A stretch of DNA of 64,000 nucleotides from Heptranchias perlo (Eukaryota): assembly GCF_035084215.1 (NCBI RefSeq), contig NC_090326.1, forward strand, positions 155,558,001 to 155,622,000, given 5' to 3'. Position numbers and translations under genes: made by a program. This document shows positions 511-64,000 of the stretch, in pieces (position 1 is the stretch's first letter; each line of letters starts with the position of its first letter). The notes below the pieces were generated by a model. The model had not been told where the DNA came from. It made no database searches and saw nothing but the letters and a program-made list of their open reading frames with translations.

Positions 511-1154
511 GGCGTAGCCCTCCTCTGCCTGATTATGTGGGGAAGCACCTCCATGTCTTCCTCACTGATCCGGGGAGAGGGGGCTCCCCTATCCGCTGCA
601 GACCCCTCCGATATTTTTGGTCGCTAACAGTTGGATTTATGCAGCCACAAGTACCGTGGGTGTTCTGGCTCCTTTGAGTAGCTGCAGATATTTACACCCT
701 GCTGTAGCTCATAGTTTCCCACCCGCTCCCCAAATAGTGAGCTCCCAATCAGACGTTGTCACTTCCAGTGGGCAGCGATGGTATCCATCATTGTTTTGCT
801 CAGGGAAATCTAGGCTTAGAAGTCAGTCACTTTCCGCTTAACAGCCTTTTCACTTTGTATTACTCAAAAAGTACCCATAGGGAGCACTGTTAAACACAGA
901 GAAACTAATCGAGTGGAGGATTTTCTCTGAAAATATACTGGCAGCATATTAAGTCTGAACACTTTTTTAAGCTACTGTGTTATAGTCTTGTCACACGATC
1001 CTGCTCATGTTTAATTTCATTTAACAGTGGACCCCTTGTGGCTTTGCTGGTGGTGAGTCGAATGATATGCTGTTTTCTAAGGACAGGCATCTTCCAGCTC
1101 TAGGTGTTATCTGCTGTTGCCTCTCTTGAAGGCTGCACAGTCTAATTGCTGTTG

Positions 1155-1288
1155 TGATGTGGAGATGCCGGTGATGGACTGGGGTTGACAATTGTAAACA
1201 ATTTTACAACACCAAGTGTTGTGAATTTAAAATAAAATTGCTGGACTATAACTTGCTGGACTATAACTTGGTGTTGTAAAATTGTTTA
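1155..1288 (-). mobile_element. Short fold-back Penelope-like element (PLE) terminal insertion, family A
   Basis: Tail (rc of attgtcaaccccagtccatcaccggcatctccacatca) at 1155-1192, short arm to 1217, inverted arm 1219-1288 with a 15-bp internal duplication; TSD taattgctgttg at 1143-1154 and 1289-1300; same sequence as the ends of the 11-kb and 58-kb copies. Confidence 0.85.
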
Positions 1289-1329
1289 TAATTGCTGTTG
1301 AGTAAATATTGTGCCAGACTAGTGAAGAA

Positions 1330-5717: not shown

Positions 5718-6290
5718 AGAAGTCTAGATGATTAAATTATCTTAGATTAGATTCAAAATCTGGACGGTGAAATCACCTTAGATTAGACTCGAAGTCTGGA
5801 CGGAGAAATCACCTTAGATTAGACTCGAAGTCTGGACGGAGAAATCACCTTAGATTAGACTCGAACTCTGAACGGTGAAATCACCTTAGATTAGACTCGA
5901 AATCTGGATGGAGAAATCACCTTAGATTAGACTCGAAGTCTGGATGGAGAAATCACCTTAGATTAGACTCGAACTCTGAACGGTGAAATCACCTTAGATT
6001 AGACTCGAAATCTGGATGGAGAAATCACCTTAGATTAGACTCGAACTCTGAACGGTGAAATCACCTTAGATTAGACTCGAAATCTGGACGGTGAAATAAT
6101 CTTAGATTAGACTGGCAATCTGGACGGTGTAATCACCTTAGATTAGACTCGAAATCTGGATGGAGAAATCACCTTAGATTAGACTCGAACTCTGGACAGA
6201 GAAATCACCTTAGATTAGACTCGAAGTCTAGATGGTGAAATCACCTTGGATTAGACTCGAAGTCTAGACGGTGAAATCACCTTGGATTAG
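5718..6290. repeat. 36-bp minisatellite, about 15-16 copies (ttagattagactcgaaatctggacggagaaatcacc)
   Basis: tcaccttaga recurs at 5881 and 6061 (5 x 36). Confidence 0.95.
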
Positions 6291-7317: not shown

Positions 7318-7850
7318 TAAAACCAGAAAATGCTGGAAACCCTCAGCAGATCAGGCAGGCTTGGGGTGGGGATCCTCTATCGACACACACTGGCAGGGTG
7401 GTCTGCACCCCTGGGGTCTATCTGCCTTTCTTCCACCACATTCCTGGGCCATGGAAGCTTTTTCCGCTTTGCCAGATTTTCTGTGCTTCCCTCCCCCTCT
7501 ACTGTTCTGCTGTAATAATTTACACCTCCTCTGGACCCATCGTTTGTTTCTATACTCGTCTCATTATTACCTCCTTTTGCCTTGCACCATCATTGCTTCT
7601 GTCATTTAGTGACTCCTGCCCTCCATTCGATCACAGACCTCTCCTTTTTGTTCTTTTCTTACCCACCCCCCCCAATCTTTCCCCGGCTCTGCACTTGTGT
7701 AAAAGCTGTTCATCACTTTCATCTTCCAATTCTGATGAAAGGTCTTCGACCTGAAACGTTAACTCTGTTTCTCTCTCCACAGATGCTGCCTGGGCTGCTG
7801 AGTGTTTCCTGCTATTTCAGATTTCCAGAATCCGCAGTAGTTTGCTTTTG
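7318..7850 (+). mobile_element. Penelope-like element relic, family B, with a short inverted 5' arm
   Basis: 7318-7360 is the imperfect rc of 7783-7820; hammerhead-like motif at 7728-7764 within the terminal region. Confidence 0.65.
7728..7764 (+). ncRNA. Minimal hammerhead ribozyme motif (family B)
   Basis: CUGAUGA-A-AGGUC-uuc-GACCU-GAAA-CG-UU; palindromic AACGUU; stem I has one mismatch. Confidence 0.7.
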
Positions 7851-10230: not shown

Positions 10231-11042
10231 CAAAAACCAGGGAATAAAGAGACAGCCTGACCATCACTTTCTCCGTTATAAGCCATTTACACCATTTACT
10301 TCAATACAAAGAGGTTCTATCTCTCCACTGATACAAACTATGTCCTATTATTTCAGTGTTAAGTCACCATATATTTTTTTAAAATCTTGTTCTGGGAATG
10401 TGAACAATACCCAGTAAAGCAGCATCTATTGCCCATCCCTGGATGCCCTGAGGGCTTTAAGAGTCAACCATATTGTGTGGAACTGAAGTCACATGCAGAC
10501 CAGAGGCAACCACATATCAGACTGTAAAGAACCAGATTTATTGAAGTCATTTTCACATCTTACTGTGGTGAGATTTGAACCCTTGTCCTCTGAGGTTGAT
10601 CTAAGCCAGTATCGTAACCACCAGACTACTGTACCCGAATCCAACATAGCATATGGGTTGTGAGACTGGCCCCATCGAGTACTTTCTCACAGCTTAGGCT
10701 GAAATCATTTCTAATGTTGAAAGAAATTCTCACGTCAGGAATATTCGGGTGTCAGTGGCCAGCTCTGCAAAAGCAGGAATGTGACGTGGGGCTAATTATA
10801 AACTTGCATCTCATAACGATGCCCATAGGAATCACTTACAAAAGAGTCATGTTCAACTTTAAAGAAAGGACTTGTATTTATATAAGGCCTTTTACGACGT
10901 CCCAAAGAACTGTTGTAATGCAGGAAATGCAGCAGACAAGGTTCCCACAAACAGCAATGAGATAATGACCAGATAACCTGTTTAAGCGAATGTTGTAAAC
11001 AATTTTACAACACCAAGTTATAGTCCAGCAATTTTATTTTAA

Positions 11043-11083
11043 ATTCACAAGCTTTCGGAGATTTTCTCCTTCCTCAGGCAAAT
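11043..11083 (-). ncRNA. Minimal hammerhead ribozyme motif (family A, inverted arm)
   Basis: rc = AUUUGC-CUGAGGA-A-GGAGA-aaa-UCUCC-GAAA-GC-UU-GUGAAU. Confidence 0.8.
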
Positions 11084-11803
11084 GTTTCAAGAACTCCTTG
11101 AAGCCTACGCATTTATACATATAGAACAATACATGGTGTTTACAGACTGCCCCTGCAACTGCCCGTTGCCAAGGCAATCACCGTGTTCAGACAGAGAGGT
11201 GTCACCTGCAGAACCCCCGAATACACATTCAACAAAAAAACAAACAGGGAAAAAAAACAGAGAAAAAAAAAACAGAGAGAGAGGCAGAAACATCCGGAAG
11301 GCAGAGAGAGCCAGCAAATGACCCATTATATTAAAAACAGATAACATTTGTTCGCTGGTGGGGTAACGTGTAGCGTGACATGAACCCAAGATCCCGGTTG
11401 AGGCCGTCCTCATGGGTGCGGAACTTGGCTATCAATTTCTGCTCGACGATTTTGATAGCCAAGTTCCGCACCCATGAGGACGGCCTCAACCGGGATCTTG
11501 GGTTCATGTCATGCTACACGTTACCCCACCAGCGAACAAATGTTATCTGTTTTTAATATAATGGGTCATTTGCTGGCTCTCTCTGCCTTCCGGATGTTTC
11601 TGCCTCTCTCTGTGTTTTTTTTTTCTCTGTTTTTTTTCCCTGTTTGTTTTTTTGTTGAATGTGTATTCGGGGGTTCTGCAGGTGACACCTCTCTGTCTGA
11701 ACACGGTGATTGCCTTGGCAACGGGCAGTTGCAGGGGCAGTCTGTAAACACCATGTATTGTTCTATATGTATAAATGCGTAGGCTTCAAGGAGTTCTTGA
11801 AAC

Positions 11804-11844
11804 ATTTGCCTGAGGAAGGAGAAAATCTCCGAAAGCTTGTGAAT
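11804..11844 (+). ncRNA. Minimal hammerhead ribozyme motif (family A, tail-bearing arm)
   Basis: AUUUGC-CUGAGGA-A-GGAGA-aaa-UCUCC-GAAA-GC-UU-GUGAAU; stem I AUUUGC/GUGAAU; predicted cleavage after 11838; AATAAA follows at 11849. Confidence 0.8.
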
Positions 11845-12484
11845 TTAAAATAAAATTGCTGGACTATAACTTGGTGTTGTAAAATTGTTTACAATTGTCA
11901 ACCCCAGTCCATCACCGGCATCTCCACATCATGACTACTAAGCGAATGTTGGTTGAGGGATAAATATTGGCCACAACACCAGGAAGAACTCCCCTGCTTT
12001 TCTTTGAAATAGTGCCATGGGTTCTTTAACATCCACCTGAGAGGGCAGATTGGGCCTTGGTTGAATGTCTCATTTGAAATATGCCACCACCAACAGTGCA
12101 GCTCTCCCTCAGTACTGTACTGCAATGTCAGTCTAGATTATGTGCTTAAGTCTCTGGAGTGGGTTTTGAACCTGCAACCTTCCAAATAACAGAGACAAAA
12201 GTGCTACCACTGAGCCAAGGCTGACCTAAAATACCCTTTGATTTTACTTGTTGATCTATTTTCTGCTGTCTTTTGGTGTTGTGTATGAATTTTCCTTTAA
12301 ACAGTGAATGTTAACGGCCTTGTGAGATGAACTGGTTTGGTGGAGTTATTCCGTGTGACTGTGAGGGGGCTGAATTGATATCAATAGAAATAGTCATGAA
12401 TTCAGGATGGTTTGGCCATTGGATCATTCAACTGTGTATGTTAACTGGCCACATCTCAGTGGCCAGTGTTCTTAATGGTTACGT

Positions 12485-31605: not shown

Positions 31606-32540
31606 GAGGTAAGTACTGGTGAGCCTGACCATGACGTTAGTGAGCCAGATCCTGCCATCGGTAAGTCGGCTCCTGTTGTCAGTGAGTCAGATCCTGCTGT
31701 CGGTGAGTCAGCTCCTATTGTCGGTGAGCCAGATTCTGCCGCCGGTGTGTCGGCTCCTTTGGTCAGTGAGCTGAACCCTGCCCTCGGTAAGTCGGCTCCT
31801 GTTGTCGGTGAGCCAGATCCTGCCCTCGGTAAGTCGGCTCCTGTTGTCGGTGGGTCAGATCCTGCTGTCGGTGAGTCAGCTCCTATTGTCGGTGAGCCAG
31901 CCCCTGCCGCCGGTGAACCGCCGCTGCTGCCGGTGAAACTGCCCCTGCCATTGGTGAGACTGCCGCTGCCGCCGGTAAACCTGCCCCTGCCGCCGGTGAG
32001 CCTGCCCCAGCCTCCAGTGAGACTGCCCCTGTCGCCGGTGAACCTGCCCCAGCTGCCGGTGAGACTGCCCCTTCCGCTGGTGAGACTGCCCCTGCCGCCG
32101 GTGAGACTGCCCTGCTGCCGGTGAGACGGCCCCTGCCTCTGGTGAGACTGCCCCTGCCACCGGTGAGCCAGCCCCTGCGGCTGGTGAGACTGCCCTTTCT
32201 GCCGGTGAGACTGCCCCTTCTGCCGGTGAGACTGCCCCAGCCACCGGTGAGACTGCCCCTGCTACCGGTGAGACTGCCCCTTCTGCCGGTGAGACTGCCC
32301 CTTCTGCCGGTGAGACTGCCCCTGCCGCCGGTGAGACTGCCCCTGCCTCCGGTGAGATTGCCCCTTCTGCCGGTGAGACTGCCCCTTCTGCCGGTGAGAC
32401 TGCCCCAGCCACCGGTGAGACTGCCCCTGCTACCGGTGAGACTGCCCCTTCTGCCGGTGAGACTGCCCCTTCTGCCGGTGAGACTGCCCCAGCCGCCGGT
32501 GAGACTGCCCCTTCTGCCGGTGAACCTGCCCCTGCCTCTT
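31606..32540 (+). repeat. GC-rich 21-bp (7-codon) repeat tract, with diverged 42-bp dimers at the 5' end
   Basis: gccggtgagactgccccttct units reading AGETAPS / PAVGESA. Confidence 0.9.
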
Positions 32541-36209: not shown

Positions 36210-36908
36210 TGTGTCAGTGTGGGACTGGATTTCTGAACACTGAGTCAGTGTGGGACTGGATTTCTGTTGGTCACTGAGTCGGTGTGGGACTGGATTTCTG
36301 ATCACTGAGTCAGTGTGGGACTGGATTTCTGTTGGTCACTGAGTCGGTGTGGGACTGGATTTCTGATCACTGAGTCGGTGTGGGACTGGATTTCTGATCA
36401 CTGTGTCGGTGTGGGACTGGATTTCTGATCACTGTGTCAGTGTGGGACTGGATTTCTGTTGGTCACTGAGTCGGTGTGGGACTGGATTTCTGATCACTGT
36501 GTCAGTGTGGGACTGGATTTCTGATCACTGAGTCAGTGTGGGACTGGATTTCTGATCACTGAGTCGGTGTGGGACTGGATTTCTGATCACTGTGTCAGTG
36601 TGGGACTGGATTTCTGATCACTGAGTCGGTGTGGGACTGGATTTCTGATCACTGTGTCAGTGTGGGACTGGATTTCTGATCACTGGGTCGGTGTGGGACT
36701 GGATTTCTGATCACTGTGTCAGTGTGGGACTGGATTTCTGATCACTGAGTCAGTGTGGGACTGGATTTCTGATCATTGAGTCGGTGTGGGACTGGATTTC
36801 TGATCACTGAGTCGGTGTGGGACTGGATTTCTGATCACTGAGTCAGTGTGGGACTGGATTTCTGATCACTGAGTCGGTGTGGGACTGGATTTCTGTTGAT
36901 CACTGAGC
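36210..36908. repeat. 31-bp minisatellite, about 22 copies (cactgagtcggtgtgggactggatttctgat), with some 34-bp variants
   Basis: tgggactgg at 36601 and 36632. Confidence 0.95.
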
Positions 36909-37084
36909 CGTGTTGCCTCCGTCAGTGGAAGCGGCTAGAACTCGTTCAAGGGATTGATCACCGGACTCAATCGTTTGGTTTAATTCGCACTGGCATCGAA
37001 ACAAAATGTATTTATCTGAATTGAACAGGAGAATTTGCACTTATGCCATCCCTTATCAGATTTCAGAAACATCTCAAAATGGTT

Positions 37085-38442: not shown

Positions 38443-39812
38443 TCTGTTTCTGAACAGCGTATCCCCTCTGTCCTGAGATACTGGTGGGGTCTGTTCCTGA
38501 GCAGCGTATCCCCTCGATCCTGAGATACCGGTCGGGTCTGTTTCTGAGCAGCGTATCCCCTCGATCCTGAGATACCGGTCGGGTCTGTTCCTGAGCAGTG
38601 TATCCCCTCGATCCTGAGATACCGGTCGGGTCTGTTCCTGAGCAGCGTATCCCCTCGATCCTGAGATACCGGTCGGGTCTGTTTCTGAGCAGCGTATCCC
38701 CTCTGTCCTGAGATACCGGTCGGGTCTGTTTCTGAGCAGCGTATCCCCTCGATCCTGAGATACCGGTCGGGTCTGTTCCTGAGCAGCGTATCCCCTCTGT
38801 CCTGAGATACTGGTGGGGTCTGTTCCTGAGCAGCGTATCCCCTCTGTCCTGAGATACCGGTCGGGTCTGTTCCTGAACAGCGTATCCCCTCTGTCCTGAG
38901 ATACCGGTCAGGTCTGTTCCTGAACAGCGTATCCCCTCGATCCTGAGATACCGGTTGGGTCTGGTCCTGAGCAGTGTATCCTCTCGATCCTGAGATACCG
39001 GTCGGGTCTGTTTCTGAGCAGTGTATCCCCTCGATCCTGAGATATCGGTTAGGTCTGTTTCTGTGCAGCGTATCCCCTCTGTCCTGAGATACCGGTCGGG
39101 TCTGTTTTTGAGCAGTGTATCCCCTCGATCCTGAGATATCGGTTGGGTCTGTTCCTGAGCAGTGTATCCCCTCGATCCTGAGATATCGGTTGGGTCTGTT
39201 CCTGAGCAGTGTATCCCCTCGATCCTGAGATACCGGTCAGGTCTGTTTCTGAGCAGCGTATCCCCTCTGCCCTGAGATGCTGGTCAGATCTGTTTCTGAG
39301 CAGCGTATCCCCTCGATCCTGAGATACCGGTCGGGTCTGTTCCTGAGCAGCGTATCCCCTCCGTCCTGAGATACCGGTCGGGCCTATTCCTGAGCAGCGT
39401 ATCCCCTCGATCCTGAGATACCGGTTGGGTCTGTTTCTGAGCAGTGTATCCCCTCGATCCTGAGATACCGGTCGGGTCTGTTCCTGAGCAGCGTATCCCC
39501 TCGATCCTGAGATACCGGTCGGGTCTGTTCCTGAGCAGCGTATCCCCTCGATCCTGAGATACCGGTCGGGTCTGTTCCTGAGCAGCGTATCCCCTCGATC
39601 CTGAGATACCGGTCGGGTCTGTTCCTGAGCAGTGTATCCCCTCGATCCTGAGATACTGGTGGGGTCTGTTTCTGTGCAGCGTATCCCCTCGATCCTGAGA
39701 TACCGGTCGGGTCTGTTCCTGAGCAGCGTATCCCCTCGATCCTGAGATACCGGTCGGGTCTGTTTCTGAGCAGCGTATCCCCTCGATCCTGAGATACCGG
39801 TTGGGTCTGTTC
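38443..39812. repeat. 47-bp CpG-rich minisatellite, about 29 copies (gagcagcgtatcccctcgatcctgagataccggtcgggtctgttcct)
   Basis: agcagcgtat at 38641 and 38688. Confidence 0.95.
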
Positions 39813-41547
39813 CCTAGCATGTCGCCAGTTGTCTTTCTCATAAGATTAGCATTTCACTAGCAGGGCCCAACAGTTAAATAGCCAAGGCAAAGAAATGTGA
39901 TATAAAGATGTCAATGTGTCTGTTGTTAATATCACACAGCCCGATTTCAGGACCAGTGTCCGTTCCTTTAAATATTGCTTATGCAAAATGTACAATAACT
40001 TCACCGATACAGACACCAATGTAAAATTCCCCAAAACACAAACTTAGTGATGGTATTGGTGAAATAAAACCTCAGAAAAGGAACAAAATATTCACAAAAA
40101 TGTTAGCAATTTACTAATTGCCCCGGACATGTTTCAGCAACTTCGTTGGAAAAAAACTAGTTTGCAAATAAGCCAAGGGAGCAATGACAATGATCTCTCT
40201 CTTCATTTTAAACCATAAAATAAATTAACAATTTATTGCAGCCATCGGCAGTTCAACGAAAGCCAGCTGCAATTGCACTTCATATTGGCGTTTATTGTCA
40301 CTTATTTTTCTTGATATCTCTGCTTCCTTCTCCTCCTGGAGCTAATCATCTGGTTTTACACAAGGGAAGTGCTTCATTTCACCAGATCAAATGAGAGCAG
40401 TGCTGTCGGCCTCTGCGGAATAGGCGGGAGCTCCACTCTACAGATAGGGCCAAATGGATAAAAAATAGCTCAAGAGGCCTCTCATCGGTACAGTGCTCCA
40501 AAAACTTCACTGCGTTCCACCCCTTATATCGACTTTCATTCCACACCCCGTGCCTCAGGAACCATTTGGACCCCACTTGAGTTCTCATACTCTCAATCTG
40601 CTCTCGGCCCAAATCACAGTAGCCTCGTGTTTATGGAATTCCTAAAGAGCGGGAGAGACAGATCCTGGTGTCCCATAACTGTTGGATTGATGTTGAAACT
40701 GGGACATGACAGGACGTGAGCCAAAAAACAGAGCCTTAACTTGTTTTCAATGCAGCAAAGAGGTCTGAGAGGGGACATGATCCATGTTCTCAGGATGGTG
40801 AGGGAAATGGATAATGTAGTTGGAAGTAGGCCAATAAAACTCTTATCTGAACAACCCATAATATGGTTAGGACCTCTATTAAAATCCATCACCATGGCAA
40901 TAGGAGATGTCAGATGGGTCGGGGGAGGGGGAAAGGAAACCAATCTATGTGAGTTCATTAGTTTCTTAGCATCCAGTGTGGAAATGAAGGGTTTCTGCTT
41001 TGTCTGCATTTCTAGTTCGTGTCCCGACGGGAGGTCATGGGATGAAACCTCCAGGAATACACCCAACCAGAGTTGGCAACCCTGGAAGAGAGGGGTGGGA
41101 GGGCTACGTGACCCCAGCAAGAGGGAGAGAGGTGCTGTGGCAGAAGGCCGGAGGCTGGTGCAGACTGTAGGTGTTCTTTCAGATTGGGGGTGGGGTGGGA
41201 GTTGCGTCTTCATCCGGGCAGGCAAACTACCTGGGCCGTGAAACACTCCACACTCCTTCGATGCTCTCACCCGGGCAGTTCACCTGTCCTGGGCAAGATA
41301 CTGAGAGTGTTGGTTGTTTTATGTTTCTATTTGTGACACACACACACCCTCGCCCTGTCCTCACTCCTCACTGGGGCAGTAGCAGCAGCAGCAACAAGCA
41401 ACTGCAGTAACAGCTTTACCTTCCTGCTCCCCCCACTCCCCCCCCCTCCAATTTGTTCAATGATTTCCAAAGATTCATTGACTACGGTGTACCAAGCCCA
41501 TGAAGGCCAAGTCCCAGCAGTTTCCTGCTGCTGCAGCCTTCACATTG

Positions 41548-45595: not shown

Positions 45596-46595
45596 TCACA
45601 CACACACATGCATACACAAATAAATACACACCCANNNNNNNNNNNNNNNNNNNNNNNNNNNNNNNNNNNNNNNNNNNNNNNNNNNNNNNNNNNNNNNNNN
45701 NNNNNNNNNNNNNNNNNNNNNNNNNNNNNNNNNNNNNNNNNNNNNNNNNNNNNNNNNNNNNNNNNNNNNNNNNNNNNNNNNNNNNNNNNNNNNNNNNNNN
45801 NNNNNNNNNNNNNNNNNNNNNNNNNNNNNNNNNNNNNNNNNNNNNNNNNNNNNNNNNNNNNNNNNNNNNNNNNNNNNNNNNNNNNNNNNNNNNNNNNNNN
45901 NNNNNNNNNNNNNNNNNNNNNNNNNNNNNNNNNNNNNNNNNNNNNNNNNNNNNNNNNNNNNNNNNNNNNNNNNNNNNNNNNNNNNNNNNNNNNNNNNNNN
46001 NNNNNNNNNNNNNNCACTCACTCATACACAGAAACGCNNNNNNNNNNNNNNNNNNNNNNNNNNNNNNNNNNNNNNNNNNNNNNNNNNNNNNNNNNNNNNN
46101 NNNNNNNNNNNNNNNNNNNNNNNNNNNNNNNNNNNNNNNNNNNNNNNNNNNNNNNNNNNNNNNNNNNNNNNNNNNNNNNNNNNNNNNNNNNNNNNNNNNN
46201 NNNNNNNNNNNNNNNNNNNNNNNNNNNNNNNNNNNNNNNNNNNNNNNNNNNNNNNNNNNNNNNNNNNNNNNNNNNNNNNNNNNNNNNNNNNNNNNNNNNN
46301 NNNNNNNNNNNNNNNNNNNNNTACACAACATACACACATACGCATATGTACACACTCACATACACACACTCATACACCGACACACATATACATGCACAAG
46401 TACACACACAAACTCACACANNNNNNNNNNNNNNNNNNNNNNNNNNNNNNNNNNNNNNNNNNNNNNNNNNNNNNNNNNNNNNNNNNNNNNNNNNNNNNNN
46501 NNNNNNNNNNNNNNNNNNNNNNNNNNNNNNNNNNNNNNNNNNNNNNNNNNNNTATAGACACATGCAAATACACACACCCACACACACTCACATAC
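45596..46595. repeat. CA-rich low-complexity tract with three N runs (45635-46014, 46038-46321, 46421-46552)
   Basis: (CA)/(CACATA) sequence flanks and separates the N runs. Confidence 0.9.
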
Positions 46596-51209: not shown

Positions 51210-53045
51210 GTGCTCACTCTCTCGAACACTCTTGATTCAGGGATTGTCCCCTTGGATTGGAAAATTGCCAGTGTCGCTCCATTATTTAAAAAGGGTGGGG
51301 GAGAGAAACCAGGAAATTATAGACCTATTAGTCTGTTGTGGGGAAGTTACTAGAATCTGTTATTAGGGACAGAGTGACTGAGCATTTGGACAAATATGAG
51401 CTGATCAGAGAGAGCCAGCGTGGATTTGTAAAGGGCAAGTCATGTCCAAAGAACCTAGTTGAATTTTTTGAGGAGGTAACTAACGTGGTAGTTAAGGGAG
51501 TGTCTGTGGATATTATTTATATGGATTTCCAGAAGGCATTCGACAAGGTTCCACATAAGAGAATGTTAACAAAAATGAGAGCGCATGGAATCAGAGGCAA
51601 CCTATTGGCTTGGAAAGGGAATTGGTTAGGAGGTAGGAGGCAGAGAGTAGGGATAATGGGTATGGACTCAAATTGGCAGGATGTGACTAGTGGTGTCCTT
51701 CAGGGATCTGTACTGGGGCCACAGCTTTATATTATATTTATAAATGACTTGAATGAAGGAATAGAGAGCTGTATATCCAAGTCTGCTGGCGACACTAAGT
51801 TAGGTGGCACAGTAAATAATGTAGACGGGAGCAGAAAGTTGCAATGGGACATTGATAGATTAAGTGAGTGGGAAAAACTGTGGCAGATGGAGTTCAATGT
51901 GGGAAAGTGTGAAGTTATCCACTTTGGACTAAGAAAAATAGATCAGAGCATTTTCTAGATGGTGAGAAGCTAGGACCTGTGGAGGAGCAGAGAGATTTAG
52001 AGATCCACGTACAGAAATCACTAAAAGCTAGTGGACAGGTACAAAAAATAATTTGAAAGGTTAATGGAATTTTAGCCTTTATCTCAAGGGGGCTGGAATA
52101 CAGAGGGTTGGAAGTTATGTTAGAGTTGTATAAAGGTCTAGTTAGACCCCATCTGGAGTATTGTGTTCAGCTCTGCACATCGCACCTCAGGAAGGACATA
52201 TTGGCCTTGGAGAGTGTGCAGCGCAGATTCACCAGAATGATACCAAGGCTAAAAGAGTTAAATTATGAAGACAAGTTGTATAGACTAGGTTTGTATTCCC
52301 TCGAGTACAGAAGATTAAGGGGTAAACCATGTGAGGTGTTTAAGATGATTAAAGGATTTGATAGGGTAGATAGAGAGAAACTATTTCCTTTGGTGGGGGA
52401 GTCCAGAGCAAGGGGGCATAACCTTAAAATTAGAGCCAGGTTGTTCAGGGGTGATGACAGGAAGCACTTCTTCACGCAAAAGGTAGTGGAAATCTGGAAC
52501 TGTCTCCCTCAAAAAGTTGTGGAGGCTGGGGGTCAATTGGAAATTTCAAAACTGAGATAGATCAATTTTTCTTAGATAAGGGTATCAAGGGACATGGAGC
52601 GAAGGTGGGTAAATGGAGTTGAGGTGCAGATCAGCCATGATCTAATTGAATAGGCTCGAGAGGCTGAATGGCCTACTTATAAGATATTAAGGGGAGCAGA
52701 GAGGGTGGATAGAGAGAAACTATTTCCACTGGTTGGGGATTCTAGGAGTAGGGGGCACAGTCTAAATATTAGAGCCAGACCTTTCAGGAGCGAGATTAGA
52801 AAACATTTCTACACACAAAGGGTGGTAGAAGTTTGGAACTCTCTTCCGCAAACGGCAATTGATACTAGCTCAATTGCTAAATTTAAATCTGAGATGGATA
52901 GCTTTTTGGCAACCAAAGGTATTAAGGGATATGTGCCAAAGGCAGGTATATGGAGTTAGATCACAGATCAGCCATGATCTTATCAAATGGCGGAGCAGGC
53001 ACGAGGGACTGAATGGCCTACTCCTGTTCCTATGTTCCTATGTAC
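51210..53045 (+). mobile_element. Degraded CR1 ORF2 (RT) 51210-52680, followed by a second CR1 3' fragment
   Basis: VPLDWKIA..PLFKKG..PGNYRPISL, YMDFQKAFDKVPH, QGSVLGP; frameshifted, FADD lost. Confidence 0.92.
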
Positions 53046-56883: not shown

Positions 56884-57984
56884 CTAGTCCCAATTTCCTG
56901 CACTTGGCCCATATCCCTCTATACCCATCTTACCCATGTAACTGTCCAAATGCTTTTTAAAAGACAAAATTGTACCCGCCTCTACTACTGCCTCTGGCAG
57001 CTCGTTCCAGACACTCACCACCCTTTGAGTGAAAAAATTACCCCTCTGGACCCTTTTGTATCTCTCCCCTCTCACCTTAAATCTATGCCCCCTCGTTATA
57101 GACTCCCCTACCTTTGGGAAAAGATTTTGACTATCTACCTTATCTATGCCCCTCATTATTTTATAGACTTCTATAAGATCACCCATTAACCTCCTACTCT
57201 CCAGGGAAAAAAGTCCCAGTCTGTCTAACCTCTCCCTATAAGTCAAACCATCAAGTCCCGGTAGCATCCTAGTAAATCTTTTCTGCACTCTTTCTAGTTT
57301 AATAATATCCTTTCTATAATAGGGTGACCAGAACTGTACACAGTACTCCAAGTGTGGCCTCACCAATGCCCTGTACAACTTCAACAAGACATCCCAACTC
57401 CTGCATTCAATGTTCTGACCAATGAAACCAAGCATGCCGAATGCCTTCTTCACCACCCTATCCACCTGTGACTCCACTTTCAAGGAGCTATGAACCTGTA
57501 CTCCTAGATCTCTTTGTTCTATAACTCTCCCCAACGCCCTACCATTAACGGAGTAGGTCCTGGCCCGATTCGATCTACCAAAATGCATCACCTCACATTT
57601 ATCGAAATTAAACTCCATCTGCCATTCATCGGCCCACTGGCCCAATTTATCAAGATCCCGTTGCAATCCTAGATGACCTTCTTCACTGTCCACAATGCCA
57701 CCAATCTTGGTGTCATCTGCAAACTTACTAACCATGCCTCCTAAATTCTCATCCAAATCATTAATATAAATAACAAATAACAGCGGACCCAGCACCGATC
57801 CCTGAGGCACACCGCTGGACACAGGCATCCAGTTTGAAAAACAACCCTCGACAACCACCCTCTGTCTTCTGTCGTCAAGCCAATTTTGTATCCAATTGGC
57901 TACCTCACCTTGGATCCCATGAGATTTAACCTTATGTAACAACCTACCATGCGGTACCTTGTCAAAGGCTTTGCTGAAGTCCAT
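56884..57984 (-). pseudogene. CR1 ORF2, RT C-terminal part
   Basis: MDFSKAFDKVPH, VPQGSVLGP, SKFADDTK; open to the stop codon. Confidence 0.95.
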
Positions 57985-57987
57985 GTA

Positions 57988-58196
57988 AACAATTTTACAA
58001 CACCAAGTTATAGTCCAGCAATTTTATTTTAAATTCACAAGCTTTCGGAGGCTTCCTCCTTCGTCAGGTAAATGTTGACGAAGGAGGAAGCCTCCGAAAG
58101 CTTGTGAATTTAAAATAAAATTGCTGGACTATAACTTGGTGTTGTAAAATTGTTTACAATTGTCAACCCCAGTCCATCACCGGCATCTCCACATCA
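57988..58196 (+). mobile_element. Fold-back PLE terminal insertion, family A, in CR1 ORF2
   Basis: Perfect 83-bp arms 57984-58066 and 58076-58158, 38-nt tail, TSD tgaagtccatgta at 57975-57987 and 58197-58209. Confidence 0.92.
58033..58073 (-). ncRNA. Minimal hammerhead ribozyme motif (family A variant)
   Basis: rc = AUUUAC-CUGACGA-A-GGAGG-aag-CCUCC-GAAA-GC-UU-GUGAAU. Confidence 0.8.
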
Positions 58197-60054
58197 TGAA
58201 GTCCATGTAGACCACGTCTACTGCACAGCCCTCATCTATCTTCTTGGTTACCCCTTCAAAAAACTCAATCAAATTCGTGAGACATGATTTTCCTCTCACA
58301 AAACCATGCTGACTGTTCCTAATTAGTCCCTGCCTCTCCAAATGCCTGTAGATCCTGTCCCTCAGAATACCGTCTAACAACTTACCCACTACAGATGTCA
58401 GGCTCACCGGTCTGTAGTTCCCAGGCTTTTCCCTGCCGCCCTTCTTAAACAAAGGCACAACATTTGCTACCCTCCAATCTTCAGGCACCTCACCTGTAGC
58501 GGTGGATGATTCAAATATCTCTGCTAGGGGACCCGCAATTTCCTCCCTAACCTCCCATAACGTCCTGGGATACATTTCATCAGGTCCCGGAGATTTATCT
58601 ACCTTGATGCGCGTTAAGACTTCCAGCACCTCCCTCTCTGTAATATGTACACTCCTCAAGACATCACTATTTATTTCCCCAAGTTCCCTAACATCCATGC
58701 CTTTCTCAACCGTAAATACCGATGTGAAATATTCATTCAGGATCTCACCCATCTCTTGTGGTTCCGCACATAGATGACCTTGTTGATCCTTAAGAGGCCC
58801 TACTCTCTCCCTAGTTACTCTTTTGCCCTTTATGTATTTGTAGAAGCTCTTTGGATTCTCCTTTGCCTTATCTGCCAAAGCAATCTCATGTCCCCTTTTT
58901 GCCCTCCTGATTTCTCTCTTAACTCTACTCCGGCAATCTCTATACTCTTCAAGGGATCCACTTGATCCCAGCTGCCTATGCATGTCATATGCCTCCTTCT
59001 TCTTTTTGACTAGGGCCTCAATCTCCCGAGTCATCCAAGGTTCCCTACTTCTACCAGCCTTGCCCTTCACTTTATAAGGAATGTGCTTACCCTGAACCCT
59101 GGTTAACACACTTTTGAAAGCCTCCCACTTACCAGACGTCCCTTTGCCTGCCAACAGACTCTCCCAATCAACTTCTGAAAGTTCCAGTCTAATACCATCA
59201 AAATTGGCCTTTCCCCAATTTAGAATTTTAACTTTTGGGCCAGACCTATCCTTCTCCATAGCTATCTTAAAACTAATGGAATTATGATCACTGGTCCCAA
59301 AGTGATCCCTCACTAACACTTCTGTCACCTGCCCTTCCTTATTTCCCAAGAGGAGGTCAAGTTTTGCCCCCTCTCTAGTCGGGCCATCCACATACTGAAT
59401 GAGAAATTCCTCCTGAATACACTCAACAAATTTCTCTCCATCCAAGCCCCTATTGCTATGGCTGTCCCAGTCAATGTTGGGAAAGTTAAAGTCCCCTACT
59501 ATTACCACCCTATTTTTCTTGCAGCTGTCTGTAATCTCCTTACATATTTGCTCCTCAATTTCCCGTTGACTATTTGGGGGTCTGTAGTACAATCCTATCA
59601 AAGTGATCTCTCCCTTCTTATTTTTCAGTTCTACCCATATAGACTCAGTGGGCGAACCCTCGGATATATCCCCTCTCACTACTGCCGTGATGTTCTCCCT
59701 AATCAAGAACGCAACTCCCCCTCCTCTCTTACCTCCTGCTCTATCTTTCCTATAGCATCTGTACCCTGGAACATTGAGCTGCCAGTCCTGCCCCTCCCTT
59801 AGCCATGTTTCAGTAATAGCTATAACATCCCAGTCCCATGTACCCATCCATGCCCTGAGTTCATCTGCCTTGCCCATCAGACTTCTTGCATTGAAATAAA
59901 TGCAGTTTAATCTAGACTTCCCTTGGTCTTTGCCCTGCTTTCTCAGACCATCTGTCCGGTCATGTTTTGTACACTCTCCCTTACTGCCTTTTGTTTCTGT
60001 CACCACTTTACTTCCCACTGACTTCCTGCATCGGTTCCCATCCCCCTGCCACAT
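58197..60054 (-). pseudogene. CR1 ORF2, APE endonuclease and RT N-terminal part
   Basis: CIYFNARSL, AITETW, GDFNFP, SDHN, PGNYRPVSLTS, QHGF; continuous frame up to the PLE insertion. Confidence 0.95.
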
Positions 60055-61000
60055 TCGTTTAAACCCTCCCCAACAGCACTAGCAAACACTCCCCCTAGGA
60101 CATTGGTTCCAGTCCTGCCCAGATGCAGACCGTCCAATTTGTACTGGTCCCACCTCCCCCAGAACCGGTTCCAATGTCCCAGGAATTTGAATCCCTCCCT
60201 CTTGCACCATCTCTCAAGCCACGTATTCATCCTAGCTATCCTGTCATTCCTACTCTGACTAGCCCGTGGCACTGGTAGCAATCCTGAGATTACTACCCTT
60301 GAGGTCCTACTCTGAAGTTTAACTCCTAACTCCCTAAATTCAGCTTGTAGGACCTCATCCTGTTTTTTACCTATATCGTTGGTGCCTATATGCACCACGA
60401 CAACTGGCTGTTCACCCTCCCCCTCCAGAATGTCCTGCAGCCGCTCCGAGACATCCTTGACCCTTGCACCAGGGAGGCAACATAAATCCTGGAGTCTCGG
60501 TTGCGTCCGCAGAAACGCCTGTCTATTCCCCTTGCAATCGAGTCCCCTATCACTATAGCTCTGCCACTCTTTTTCCTGCCCTCCTGTGCAGCAGAGCCAG
60601 CCACGGTGCCATGAACCTGGCCACTGCCACCTTCCCCTGGTGAGCCATCTCCCCCAACAGTATCCAAAACGGTATACCTGTTTTGGAGGGAGATGACCGC
60701 AGGGAACCCCTGCACTGCCTTCCTACTCTTCCTCTGTCTGTTGGTCACCCATTCACTATCTCCCTCAGTAATTTTTATCTGCGGTGTGACCAACTCACTG
60801 AACATGCTAGCCACGACTTTCTCAGCATCGTGGATGCTCCAAAGTGAGTCCATCCACAGCTCCAGAGCCGTCAAGCGGTCAAACAATAGCTGCAGCTGGA
60901 CACACTTCCCGCAGGTGAAGGAATCAGGGATACAGGAAGGATCCCTGAATTCCCACATCCCACAAGAGGAACATGACACGGCTGTGGGATCTCCTACCAT
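60000..61000 (-). pseudogene. CR1 ORF1: CxxC zinc finger, coiled coil and SGNH/GDSL esterase-like domain; one frameshift near 60480
   Basis: CSSC...CGKC, IVIGDSIAR, VHIGTNDI, DGLHL split over ORFs 60386..61000 and 60000..60398. Confidence 0.9.
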
Positions 61001-61038
61001 GACTTAACCCTTAAGTTAGCTTAACAACAACTACAATG

Positions 61039-62885
61039 TCAAAGCTCTGCAGTCCTGCCACATCCAGTCGTGAATGGTGGTGGACAATTAAACAACTAAC
61101 GGGAGGAGGAGGCTCTGCAAACATCCTCATTCTCAGTGATGGCGGAGTCCAGCACGTGAGTGCAAAAGACAAGGCTGAAGCGTTTGCAACCACCTTCAGC
61201 CAGAAGTGCCGAGTGGATAATCCATCTCAGCCTCCTCCCGATATCCCCACCATCACGGAAGCCAGTCTTCGGCCAATTCGATTCACTCCACGTGATATCA
61301 AGAAACGGCTGAGTGCACTGGATACAGCAAAGGCTATGGGCCCTGACAACATCCCAGCTGTAGTGCTGAAGACTTGTGCTCCAGAACTAGCTGCGCCTCT
61401 AGCCAAGCTGTTCCAGTACAGCTACAACACTGGCATCCACCCGACAATGTGGAAAATTGCCCAGGTATGTCCTGTCCACAAAAAGCAGGACAAATCTAAT
61501 CCGGCCAATTACCGCCCCATCAGTCTACTCTCAATCATCAGCAAAGTGATGGAAGGTGTCGTCGACAGTGCTATCAAGCGGCACTTACTCACCAATAACC
61601 TGCTCACCGATGCTCAGTTTGGGTTCCGCCAGGACCACTCGGCTCCAGACCTCATTACAGCCTTGGTCCAAACATGGACAAAAGAGCTGAATTCCAGAGG
61701 TGAGGTGAGAGTGACTGCCCTTGACATCAAGGCAGCATTTGACCGAGTGTGGCACCAAGGAGCCCCAGTAAAATTGAAGTCAATGGGAATCAGAGGGAAA
61801 ACTCTCCAGTGGCTGGAGTCATACCTAGCACAAAGGAAGATGGTAGTGGTTGTTGGAGGCCAATCATCTCAGCCCCAGGGCATTGCTGCAGGAGTTCCTC
61901 AGGGCAGTGTCCTAGGCCCAACCATCTTCAGCTGCTTCATCAATGACCTTCCCTCCATCATAAGGTCAGAAATGGGGATGTTCGCTGATGACTGCACAGT
62001 GTTCAGTTCCATTCGCAACCCCTCAGATAATGAAGCAGTCCGAGCCTGCATGCAGCAAGACCTGGACAACATCCAGGCTTGGGCTGATAAGTGGCAAGTA
62101 ACATTCGCGCCAGATAAGTGCCAGGCAATGACAATCTCCAACAAGAGAGAGTCTAACCACCTCCCCTTGACATTCAACGGCATTACCATCGCCGAATCCC
62201 CAACCATCAACATCCTGGGGGTCACCATTAACCAGAAACTTAACTGGACCAGCCATATAAATACTGTGGCTACGAGAGCAGGTCAGAGGCTGGGTATTCT
62301 GCGACGAGTGACTCACCTCCTGACTCCCCAAAGCCTTTCCACCATCTACAAGGCACAAGTCAGGAGTGTGATGGAATACTCTCCACTTGCCTGGATGAGT
62401 GCAGCTCCAACAACACTCAAGAAGCTCGACACCATCCAAGATAAAGCAGCCCGCTTGATTGTCACCCCATCCACCACCCTAAACATTCACTCCCTTCACC
62501 ACCGGCGCACAGTGGCTGCAGTGTGTACCATCCACAGGATGCACTGCAGCAACTCGCCAAGGCTTCTTCGACAGCACCTCCCAAACCCGCGACCTCTACC
62601 ACCTAGAAGGACAAGGGCAGCAGGCGCATGGGAACAACACCACCTGCACATTCCCCTCCAAGTCACACACCATCCCGACTTGGAAATATTTCGCCGTTCC
62701 TTCATTGTCGCTGGGTCAAAATCCTGGAACTCCCTACCTAACAGCACTGTGGGAGAACCTTCACCACACGGACTGCAGCGGTTCAAGAAGGCGGCTCACC
62801 ACCTCCTTCTCGAGGGCAATTAGGGATGGGCAATAAATGCCGGCCTCGCCAGCGACGCCCACATCCCGTGAACGAATAAAAAAAT
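61039..62885 (+). mobile_element. 5'-truncated LINE of a second CR1/L2-superfamily family with a long open RT frame, inserted antisense in the CR1 5'UTR
   Basis: PANYRPISLLS, QFGFR, LDIKAAFDRVWH, VPQGSVLGP, MFADDC; A-rich tail; aatg duplicated at 61035-61038 and 62886-62889. Confidence 0.92.
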
Positions 62886-63156
62886 AATGAGAAAAAAAAG
62901 GAAAGAAAAACTACTTACCACTCCCTTTAAGGAGTTTACTCCTTTAAATTGTTCTTAATTTAGAGAATGTTAACTACACTAGGGACCTTCCTAAATAAAC
63001 GCTACTTCCTACAAGACCTGCAGACCTTCCCTTTCTTTTTACTTTCGTTACTGTAGATAAGTAGAAATACTCACCTGAACCTACTCACCAATCAGGTGCC
63101 TCCCCTGTGTCGCGTCCCGATCTGATTCCTGACGTCACTTCGAACTCGGTCGCAGC

Positions 63157-63862
63157 TCCGCTCGGCTCGGCTCCTCTCAGCGCTCTGAAATCCCACCTTT
63201 TATCGGACGCTCCCTCCGCTCGGCTCCTCTCAGCGCTCTGAAATCCCGCCTTTTATCGGACGCTCCCTCCGCTCCGCTCGGCTCCTCTCAGCTGTTCTCA
63301 GCGCTCTGAAATCCCGCCTTTTATCGGACGCTCCCTCCGCTCCGCTCGGCTCCTCTCAGCTGTTCTCAGCGCTCTGAAATCCCGCCTTTTATCGGACGCT
63401 CCCTCCGCTCGGCTCGGCTCCTCTCAGCGCTCTGAAATCCCGCCTTTTATCGGACGCTCCCTCCGCTCGGCTCCTCTCAGCTGTTCTCAGCGCTCTGAAA
63501 TCCCGCCTTTTATCGGACGCTCCCTCCGCTCCGCTCGGCTCCTCTCAGCTGTTCTCAGCGCTCTGAAATCCCGCCTTTTATCGGACGCTCCCTCCGCTCG
63601 GCTCGGCTCCTCTCAGCGCTCTGAAATCCCGCCTTTTATCGGACGCTCCCTCCGCTCGGCTCCTCTCAGCTGTTCTCAGCGCTCTGAAATCCCGCCTTTT
63701 ATCGGACGCTCCCTCCGCTCGGCTCGGCTCCTCTCAGCTGTTCTCAGCGCTCTGAAATCCCGCCTTTTATCGGGCGCTCCCTCCGCTCGGCTCCTCTCAG
63801 CTGTTCTCAGCGCTCTGAAATCCCGCCTTTTATCGGACGCTCCCTCCGCTCGGCTCGGCCCC
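63157..63862 (-). promoter_or_regulatory. Tandem GC/CpG-rich monomers (about 53-68 bp, about 11 copies) forming the CR1 5'UTR; candidate internal promoter
   Basis: gctctgaaatcccgccttttatcggacgctccctccgctc units; on the minus strand each has gataaaaggcggga; TGACGTCA at 63130-63137. Confidence 0.7.
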
Positions 63863-64000
63863 TCTGTCTCCTCTGCTGGATAACTCCTAACTCCTAACTC
63901 CTCTCAGGCTGATGTGAAAATGCTGCTGGCCCAAATCAGAGAAAGGCGCAATGCAATAGTTGGAACCATCACCTGGAGCAGCAAGGGCCATTTGGAAGGA

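What the first reader, a model, noticed from the sequence alone, without database searches (positions are those of the whole stretch)
10983..11951. Three independent PLE insertions share one fold-back architecture
Seen at 1155-1288, 10996-11938 and 57988-58196: one arm ends in a 38-45 nt tail (attgtcaaccccagtccatcaccggcatctccacatca). The inverted arm lacks the tail and always ends at ...ttgttta(ca). TSDs are 12-13 bp, and the TSD overlaps the inverted-arm end by 3-5 nt of microhomology (ttg, tgta, aattg). The fixed end coincides with a small stem-loop, ttgtaaa-attg-tttacaa, and the palindrome ACAATTGT. Established: PLEs have tailed pseudo-LTRs and often form inverted arrangements. Inference: two priming events at a nick staggered by about 13 nt, one at the RNA 3' tail and one at a fixed internal site, followed by joining of the two cDNAs.
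Basis: partly seen in the sequence, partly recalled or inferred. Interest (0 to 1): 0.8.

Follow-up and report, generated by a model that had tools for sequence, protein, structure and literature searches.

The report
Shark Penelope retrotransposon fold-back insertions
Three young, truncated copies of a shark jumping gene (a Penelope-like retrotransposon) each landed as a lopsided hairpin; this shape is already known for the group, but these clean miniature copies suit a test of the open question of whether both strands of the cut chromosome are used as primers at once.

Summary
Three independent, very young, 5'-truncated insertions of one Neptune-clade Penelope-like element (PLE), probably from the shark Heptranchias perlo, each read TSD / tail-less inverted arm / tailed arm / TSD. 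TSDs are 12, 13 and 13 bp, and the tail-less ends fall within 2 nt of each other. The arrangement is published, and so are two reverse-transcription start sites flanking the tail with both target strands extended in vitro (anole Poseidon). Three corrections: exact microhomology is 0, 3 and 4 nt, not 3-5, and cannot be separated from an apparent TTR|R nick preference; the stem-loop is not beyond chance; the tail-side start is probably internal too. New here: both arms of a copy share subfamily variants, their 5' ends lie only 9-32 nt apart, and the tail-less arm reaches further in 3 of 3. One distant relative shows the opposite polarity. Best model: dual target-primed reverse transcription on one RNA, with the two cDNA ends joined by microhomology (0.6). 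Verdict: new member of a known kind; a useful test bed with n = 3.

The parts
1143..1154 (.). S1 TSD, tail-side copy (12 bp)
1155..1217 (-). S1 tailed arm (63 nt; tail 1155-1194), 100% identical to S2
1219..1288 (+). S1 tail-less arm; holds a 15-nt tandem duplication (1238-1252/1253-1267); its 5' limit is 2 nt past the predicted ribozyme cut; one extra base at 1218
1289..1300 (.). S1 TSD, tail-less-side copy; terminal base mismatched to the element
10983..10995 (.). S2 TSD, tail-less side (13 bp; last 3 nt match the element); inside a SINE-like repeat
10996..11454 (-). S2 tail-less (inverted) arm; 2 differences in 443 columns from the tailed arm
11334..11453 (-). C-terminal 40 codons of the GIY-YIG endonuclease (KIVEQKLIAKFRTHEDGLN...); 28 aa at 96% to the H. 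perlo RT-EN protein P0007
11436..11451 (-). S2 central 16-nt loop, belonging to the tail-less arm; 2-3 nt microhomology at the join (11452-11454)
11452..11938 (+). S2 tailed arm: endonuclease end, 3' UTR / pLTR, hammerhead, tail
11804..11844 (+). Minimal type I hammerhead ribozyme motif (CUGAGGA, extra A, stem II, GAAA, palindromic GC, predicted cut after 11838); copies on - at 11077 and 58067; no Rfam hit
   Evidence: Rfam negative
11889..11894 (+). Fixed internal end of the tail-less arms (inferred internal priming site)
11892..11938 (+). Tail (S1 and S3 stop at 11931; the last 7 nt are seen only in S2)
11939..11951 (.). S2 TSD, tail-side copy
57975..57987 (.). S3 TSD, tail-less side (13 bp; last 4 nt match the element); inside the RT domain of an APE-RT LINE on the - strand
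57988..58076 (-). S3 tail-less arm, with a 9-nt loop (58067-58075) and a 1-nt overlap at 58076
58076..58196 (+). S3 tailed arm (tail 58157-58196); 0 differences in 82 columns from its partner arm, 4-5 differences from S2 in both arms
58197..58209 (.). S3 TSD, tail-side copy (first 3 nt match the continuation seen in S2's tail)

Best explanation
These are abortive (5'-truncated) insertions of a Neptune-clade PLE made by dual target-primed reverse transcription. SHOWN BY SEQUENCE: a staggered cut leaving 12-13 nt duplications; each target strand continues into antisense element sequence, one from about 11890 (internal site) and one from 11931-11938 (tail end); both arms carry the same subfamily variants; the arms meet head to head with 0-3 nt overlap. 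INFERRED: a dimeric RT-GIY-YIG protein nicks both strands at a TTR|R-like motif about 13 nt apart, leaving 3' overhangs. Each 3'-OH is placed on the sense RNA at one of two protein-defined start sites about 40 nt apart, probably helped by 3-6 bp of primer-template pairing including G-U. Both cDNAs copy the same RNA and stop near the same 5' point (broken RNA, ribozyme cut or stalling). Their 3' ends then join by microhomology and host repair fills in. The tail is simply the template between the two start sites.
For: TSD, ends and empty sites. S3 differs from S2 at 4-5 positions in both arms while its own arms are identical. 5' offsets of 32, 16 and 9 nt; under independent exponential truncation with mean 100-400 nt (my assumption), P is 0.02-0.0004. 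All six implied nicks read TTA|G, TTG|G, GTA|G, TTG|A, TTA|A, TCA|G, 22 of 24 positions matching TTR|R, which occurs at 1.8% of window positions (motif derived from the same sites). PAc cuts and extends both strands, starts at two sites bounding the tail, and is predicted to dimerise (PMC11167929). Locus L014 has a 47-nt tail-less arm, a ~1.1-kb tailed arm, a 37-nt tail, a 7-bp TSD and a 3-nt TTC overlap at the centre. Of the three priming models, only dual priming gives both this polarity and the shark one.
Against: n = 3, one family, one window. Frangieh et al. report no difference in start site between strands and a start 'not homologous' to the cut DNA. Microhomology is not significant once nick preference is allowed for. 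Nick positions assume maximal TSDs, and S3 can also be parsed with an 11-bp TSD. Coupled 5' ends are not general: L014, L001, L012, L032 and the older family at 7320-7850 have short tail-less arms with long tailed arms. L014 has 4 filler nt and L001 has no TSD of 6 bp or more. No activity was tested.
Confidence: 0.6

Rival explanations
1. Self-priming on an antisense transcript (Arkhipova et al. 2013): the antisense RNA folds back, RT copies it into a hairpin, the endonuclease trims the antisense strand at the fixed site leaving the tail, and the product integrates at a staggered cut.
For: Proposed in print to explain palindromes at inverted junctions (PMC3846280). It predicts a short loop in the tail-less arm, as seen in 3 of 3, and identical variants in both arms.
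Against: It cannot give L014, whose tailed arm is ~1.1 kb against a 47-nt tail-less arm. In vitro TPRT works on sense RNA from two sites that match genomic ends. It needs extra steps to make clean 12-13 bp TSDs.
Confidence: 0.15
2. Single TPRT from the tail end; the cDNA snaps back on itself, is copied to the fixed site, and joins the second 3' overhang by microhomology.
For: It explains identical arms, hairpin centres, microhomology at the tail-less end, and the L014 polarity.
Against: It requires the loop to belong to the tailed arm; it belongs to the tail-less arm in 3 of 3. It gives no reason for a fixed stop.
Confidence: 0.1
3. Dual TPRT, but on two separate RNAs (one per subunit) with independent truncation; the close 5' ends here are chance or reflect selection for easy joining.
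For: A symmetric dimer and no strand bias in vitro; unequal arms in L014 and L001. Shared variants could come from one source locus.
Against: Offsets of 32 nt or less in 3 of 3, one of them on ~450-nt arms. One tailed and one tail-less arm in 3 of 3.
Confidence: 0.12
4. Artefact or later event: fold-back reads, replication template switching after insertion, or copies of one palindromic master (MITE-like).
For: Arms are 99.5-100% identical, and palindromes are assembly-prone.
Against: Three different centres, flanks and TSDs; TSDs abut both ends; host repeats continue in register; S3 plus one TSD is 222 bp inside an otherwise open LINE frame; S2 arms differ at 2 sites.
Confidence: 0.03

Closest known systems
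Endonuclease-bearing PLE insertions with an inverted pLTR and a one-sided tail (Arkhipova 2013 PMC3846280; Craig 2021 PMC8557442)
   Same: Inverted 5'-truncated copy, 30-40 bp tail at one end, TSD (8-10 bp in Adineta), palindrome at the inverted junction, hammerhead in the pLTR.
   Different: Here no internal ORF-bearing unit is present; TSDs are 12-13 bp; the centre falls at a different place in each copy.
PAc, Poseidon of Anolis carolinensis (Frangieh 2024 PMC11167929)
   Same: Two start points bounding the tail, both strands extended, AT-rich (ATT) cut preference, AC-rich template.
   Different: Different clade (PAc lacks the Cys linker). The authors saw no homology to the cut DNA and did not describe joined inverted products in the text I read.
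Neptune-clade PLEs
   Same: CX4CxxC linker and CCHH motif in the parent protein P0007; minimal hammerhead as in fish Neptune and Poseidon (PMC4209133).
   Different: No paper naming Heptranchias with Penelope was found; Repbase and Dfam were not searchable.
L1 twin priming (search listing; details recalled)
   Same: Both nicked strands prime; inverted product within TSDs; microhomology join.
   Different: In L1 the internal priming site varies and the two segments cover mostly different parts of the RNA. Here the internal site is fixed ~40 nt from the first, so the arms are near-complete mirror images.

Membership tests
EN+ Penelope-like element | Single ORF with RT and C-terminal GIY-YIG endonuclease | tested here: met
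   The window holds only the last 40 codons; 28 aa are 96% identical to P0007, which has RVT_1; relatives P0008 and P0010 hit GIY-YIG. The window peptide alone has no Pfam hit.
EN+ Penelope-like element | Hammerhead ribozyme in the pLTR | tested here: met
   Minimal motif by pattern and fold, with the extra base, G10.1-C11.1 pair and palindromic 15.2-16.2 described in PMC4209133. Rfam gave no hit. Cleavage was not tested.
EN+ Penelope-like element | Inverted 5'-truncated copy with a tail at one end only | tested here: met
   3 of 3.
EN+ Penelope-like element | Variable-length TSD | tested here: met
   12, 13 and 13 bp.
EN+ Penelope-like element | Partial tandem pLTR-ORF-pLTR | tested here: inconclusive
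   No full-length copy in the window; the genome was not available.
Neptune clade | CX2-5CxxC linker between RT and EN, plus CCHH | tested here: met
   P0007 C505, C510, C513, C548, C552 and H572 invariant and H588 nearly invariant in 32 relatives; criteria. Shown for the parent protein, not for window sequence.
Neptune clade | RT phylogeny with labelled Neptune references | not tested
   No labelled reference sequences were available.
Penelope/Poseidon clade | Absence of the CX2-5CxxC linker | tested here: not met
   Linker present.
Foldback/MITE DNA transposon | Symmetric terminal inverted repeats and a shared internal structure | tested here: not met
   One end carries a 40-47 nt tail; centres differ among copies; RT-element ORF remnant present.
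Non-LTR retrozyme | Head-to-tail tandem hammerhead repeats | tested here: not met
   Copies are single, dispersed and head to head.
L1-type twin priming (works-like) | Both strands of one cut prime on one RNA | not testable with these tools
   Inferred from junctions only.

The most novel reading that the evidence does not exclude
In this Neptune family the two subunits of one RT-endonuclease dimer work in file on a single RNA. One strand of a symmetric TTR|R cut primes at the internal site and leads; the other primes ~40 nt behind at the tail end and trails, displacing the first cDNA. The trailing enzyme therefore stops short of the leading one (9-32 nt here, never more than about a tail length), and the two adjacent 3' ends are joined. 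The template at both start sites has co-evolved to pair with the endonuclease's preferred primer ends, telomerase-fashion. No conventional second-strand step is needed, and the PLE tail, inverted pLTR and junction palindrome all follow from one reaction. S1 would be a copy of the ribozyme-cut 3' fragment.
Probability: 0.25. Interest if true: 0.65.

Novelty: new member of a known kind. Interest (0 to 1): 0.35.

Why it matters
The architecture is known, but how PLEs make tandem and inverted structures is still called undefined (PMC8557442), and the steps after first priming are 'yet to be validated' (PMC11167929). Three near-identical miniature copies in 64 kb, and identical fragments in gene models on other large scaffolds, suggest a young, numerous family. 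Its junctions could decide between dual priming, antisense self-priming and cDNA snap-back by simple counting: loop polarity, 5' offset, nick motif. A retroelement that extends both strands of one cut from one RNA would also bear on the general second-strand problem of TPRT.

Tried and rejected
Rfam found nothing at the gathering threshold in the whole window or at E up to 10 in 11450-11960. Pfam found nothing for the 40-aa remnant. A search for the N-terminus of the shark ORF, to test whether the tail's ATG is the start codon, gave 0 hits among 63 candidates, so this stays untested. The microhomology null used templates shifted by 1-2 nt and is superseded; the tail-side TSD search for S1 failed on a window edge and is superseded. 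A possible pseudoknot across the start site (pLTR pairing with the tail) was noticed by eye but no varied sequences were available to test it. P0001 (FAM204A isoform) is not encoded by this window beyond the PLE part. GTDB scan: 41 loci, none a close shark relative; 32 of 41 (those of 2 kb or more) were self-compared; 15 hammerhead motifs were found in 11 of 41 loci, 3 of the 15 with an inverted copy of neighbouring 3' sequence (L001, L012, L014), plus L032; only L014 had both ends and a TSD. L009's palindrome and L031's inverted repeat were set aside as apparently unrelated elements. The second shark family (7320-7850) gave no credible TSD (best 7 of 10) and an arm score of 46 against a shuffled maximum of 44. 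No structure or complex prediction was run. Viral and metagenome contig collections and the shark genome itself stayed unchecked.

Full report
1. What is there. Self-comparison of the window and direct reading show three insertions of one family: S1 1155-1288, S2 10996-11938, S3 57988-58196. Each reads TSD, inverted arm without tail, direct arm with tail, TSD. The TSDs are exact: 12, 13 and 13 bp. An abutting duplication of 11 bp or more arose in 128 of 200,000 random junction pairs. S2 sits in a SINE-like repeat whose other copies carry the TSD region once; S3 sits in the RT domain of an APE-RT LINE whose relative at 51255-51898 does likewise (the labels SINE and CR1-like are recalled). S1 had no such test. 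The copies are young: S2's arms differ at 2 of 443 columns, S3's at 0 of 82. No fourth copy of this family rises above background.

2. What it is. The centre of S2 encodes the last 40 residues of a GIY-YIG endonuclease. They are 96% identical over 28 aa to a Heptranchias perlo RT-endonuclease protein, P0007, and 100% identical over 40 aa to the ends of two predicted H. perlo isoforms. The window is therefore probably from this shark or a close relative (inference). P0007 has RVT_1 and the CX4CxxC linker plus CCHH motif that mark Neptune against Penelope/Poseidon; no tree with labelled references was made. A minimal hammerhead lies at 11804-11844 with the features listed in PMC4209133; Rfam does not detect it.

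3. The tail-less ends fall at 11891, 11891 and 11889 in S2 numbering; P is 0.007 for a 50-nt range. Tails end at 11931, 11938 and 11931. Exact overlap between TSD and arm is 0, 3 and 4 nt: at S1 five bases match, but the terminal TSD base does not. With G-U allowed, primer-template pairing is 6 bp behind a mismatch, 4 and 4 at the tail-less end, and 4 (two wobble) and 3 at the tail end of S1 and S3; S2's tail end cannot be tested. Against random primers this is significant (P 0.002, or 0.04 with a sliding junction). But all six implied nicks resemble TTR|R (22 of 24 positions), and conditioning on that motif raises P to 0.09-0.24, or 0.33-0.90 with sliding. The motif was read from the same six sites, so its own P values (0 of 10^6; 1.2e-4 for the tail-side three) are overstated. 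The proposed hairpin is weak, with 20 of 200 shuffles as stable.

4. Within a copy both arms share subfamily variants: S3 differs from S2 at 4-5 positions in both arms. The arms' 5' ends are close: 32, 16 and 9 nt apart, joined with 0-3 nt overlap, and the extra sequence belongs to the tail-less arm in 3 of 3. Under independent exponential truncation with mean 100-400 nt (my assumption) this has P 0.02-0.0004; polarity alone has P 0.25. S1's tail-less arm stops 2 nt beyond the predicted ribozyme cut (post hoc).

5. Relatives. The only DNA collection open was GTDB. It gave 41 loci at 25-44% identity in records titled as bacterial genomes, which I take to be eukaryotic contamination. I self-compared 32 of the 41. 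L014 is a complete second example in a distant Cys-linker family: 37-nt tail, 7-bp TSD with 4 filler nt, 47-nt tail-less arm, ~1.1-kb tailed arm, TTC overlap at the centre. L001 has a 40-nt tail-less arm and no TSD of 6 bp or more; L012 and L032 have inverted arms cut by the contig start. All have the long arm on the tail side, the opposite of the shark trio. Coupled 5' ends are therefore not a general PLE rule.

6. Mechanism. Geometry requires that each strand of a 12-13 nt staggered target continues into antisense element sequence. Snap-back of a tail-primed cDNA would put the loop in the tailed arm, contrary to 3 of 3. Antisense self-priming (PMC3846280) fits the trio but not L014. Dual TPRT fits both. 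It has biochemical support: PAc cuts and extends both strands, starts at two sites bounding the tail, and is predicted to be a dimer. Against details of the model, the same paper reports no strand difference in start site and no homology between cut DNA and start site. Different families may also use different routes. I put dual TPRT on one RNA at 0.6, antisense self-priming at 0.15, independent RNAs at 0.12, snap-back at 0.10 and artefact at 0.03. Shown: junctions, TSDs, shared variants, offsets. Inferred: nick positions, dimer, RNA polarity, order of events, role of pairing.

7. What is known. Inverted pLTR, one-sided 30-40 bp tail, TSD and junction palindromes are described in PMC3846280 (read parts 1-4 of 5) and PMC8557442 (passages). 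PMC11167929: read parts 1-3 of 4 and the text layer of supplements 1 and 2, whose images I could not see and which may bear on strand and start-site pairing. Passages only: PMC8969392, 10.64898/2026.07.22.740005, PMC4209133, PMC12910113. L1 twin priming: search listing and recall. Ten searches showed no paper stating the dual-priming origin of PLE inverted arms or describing this shark family. [quoted passage not shown]

8. Verdict. Real, correctly identified, and architecturally already known: a new member of a known kind. A PLE specialist would not be surprised by the shape. The residual value is a clean, countable test of an open mechanism, resting for now on three copies. Interest 0.35; the boldest reading (two polymerases in file on one RNA) has probability 0.25 and would merit 0.65.

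Noticed in passing
window 7320-7850: A second, older PLE-like family: hammerhead core at 7732 and a 39-nt inverted piece at 7320-7358 (79% identity) that stops before the apparent tail; no credible TSD.
   Followed up: partly
window 1238-1267: 15-nt tandem duplication inside S1's tail-less arm, bounded by a 3-nt repeat; RT slip-back or later slippage.
   Followed up: partly
window 1219 / 11837-11839: S1's tail-less arm ends 2 nt beyond the predicted hammerhead cut; S3's arms end at the hammerhead's 5' edge (11801-11811).
   Followed up: partly
six TSD boundaries (1142/1143, 1300, 10983, 10995, 57975, 57987 and partners): Implied nicks on both strands resemble TTR|R, suggesting a symmetric endonuclease preference at 12-13 nt spacing.
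   Followed up: partly
window 11334-11453 (-): This subfamily reads 12 codons past the stop used by P0007. The same C-terminus ends predicted H. perlo isoforms of FAM204A and XRCC5 (P0001, P0002), i.e. other copies taken into gene models; whether they are really spliced is unknown.
   Followed up: partly
window 11932-11938: S2's tail ends ATG ACT AC, which may be the ORF start of a tandem template; a search for the shark N-terminus found nothing.
   Followed up: partly
window 11858-11920: pLTR segments upstream of the fixed site (tggact, ggtg) could pair with tail segments (agtcca, cacc) in pseudoknot order; seen by eye, untested.
   Followed up: no
window 56884-60078 (-) and 61015-62823 (+): Long open LINE ORF2 frames (APE plus RT, interrupted by S3; a second RT frame of 602 aa).
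   Followed up: partly
window 5719-6290, 31616-32539, 36210-36910, 38443-39819, 63155-63865: Five tandem arrays (periods roughly 36-94 bp or multiples); N gaps at 45635-46552.
   Followed up: no
L001-L041 (GTDB contigs): 41 Penelope-type RT loci inside bacterial genome records, probably host contamination; L017, L020 and L021 are near-perfect head-to-tail tandems.
   Followed up: partly
L014 4990-4993: Four filler bases between TSD and tail-less arm that equal the reverse complement of the tail end region; may be chance.
   Followed up: no
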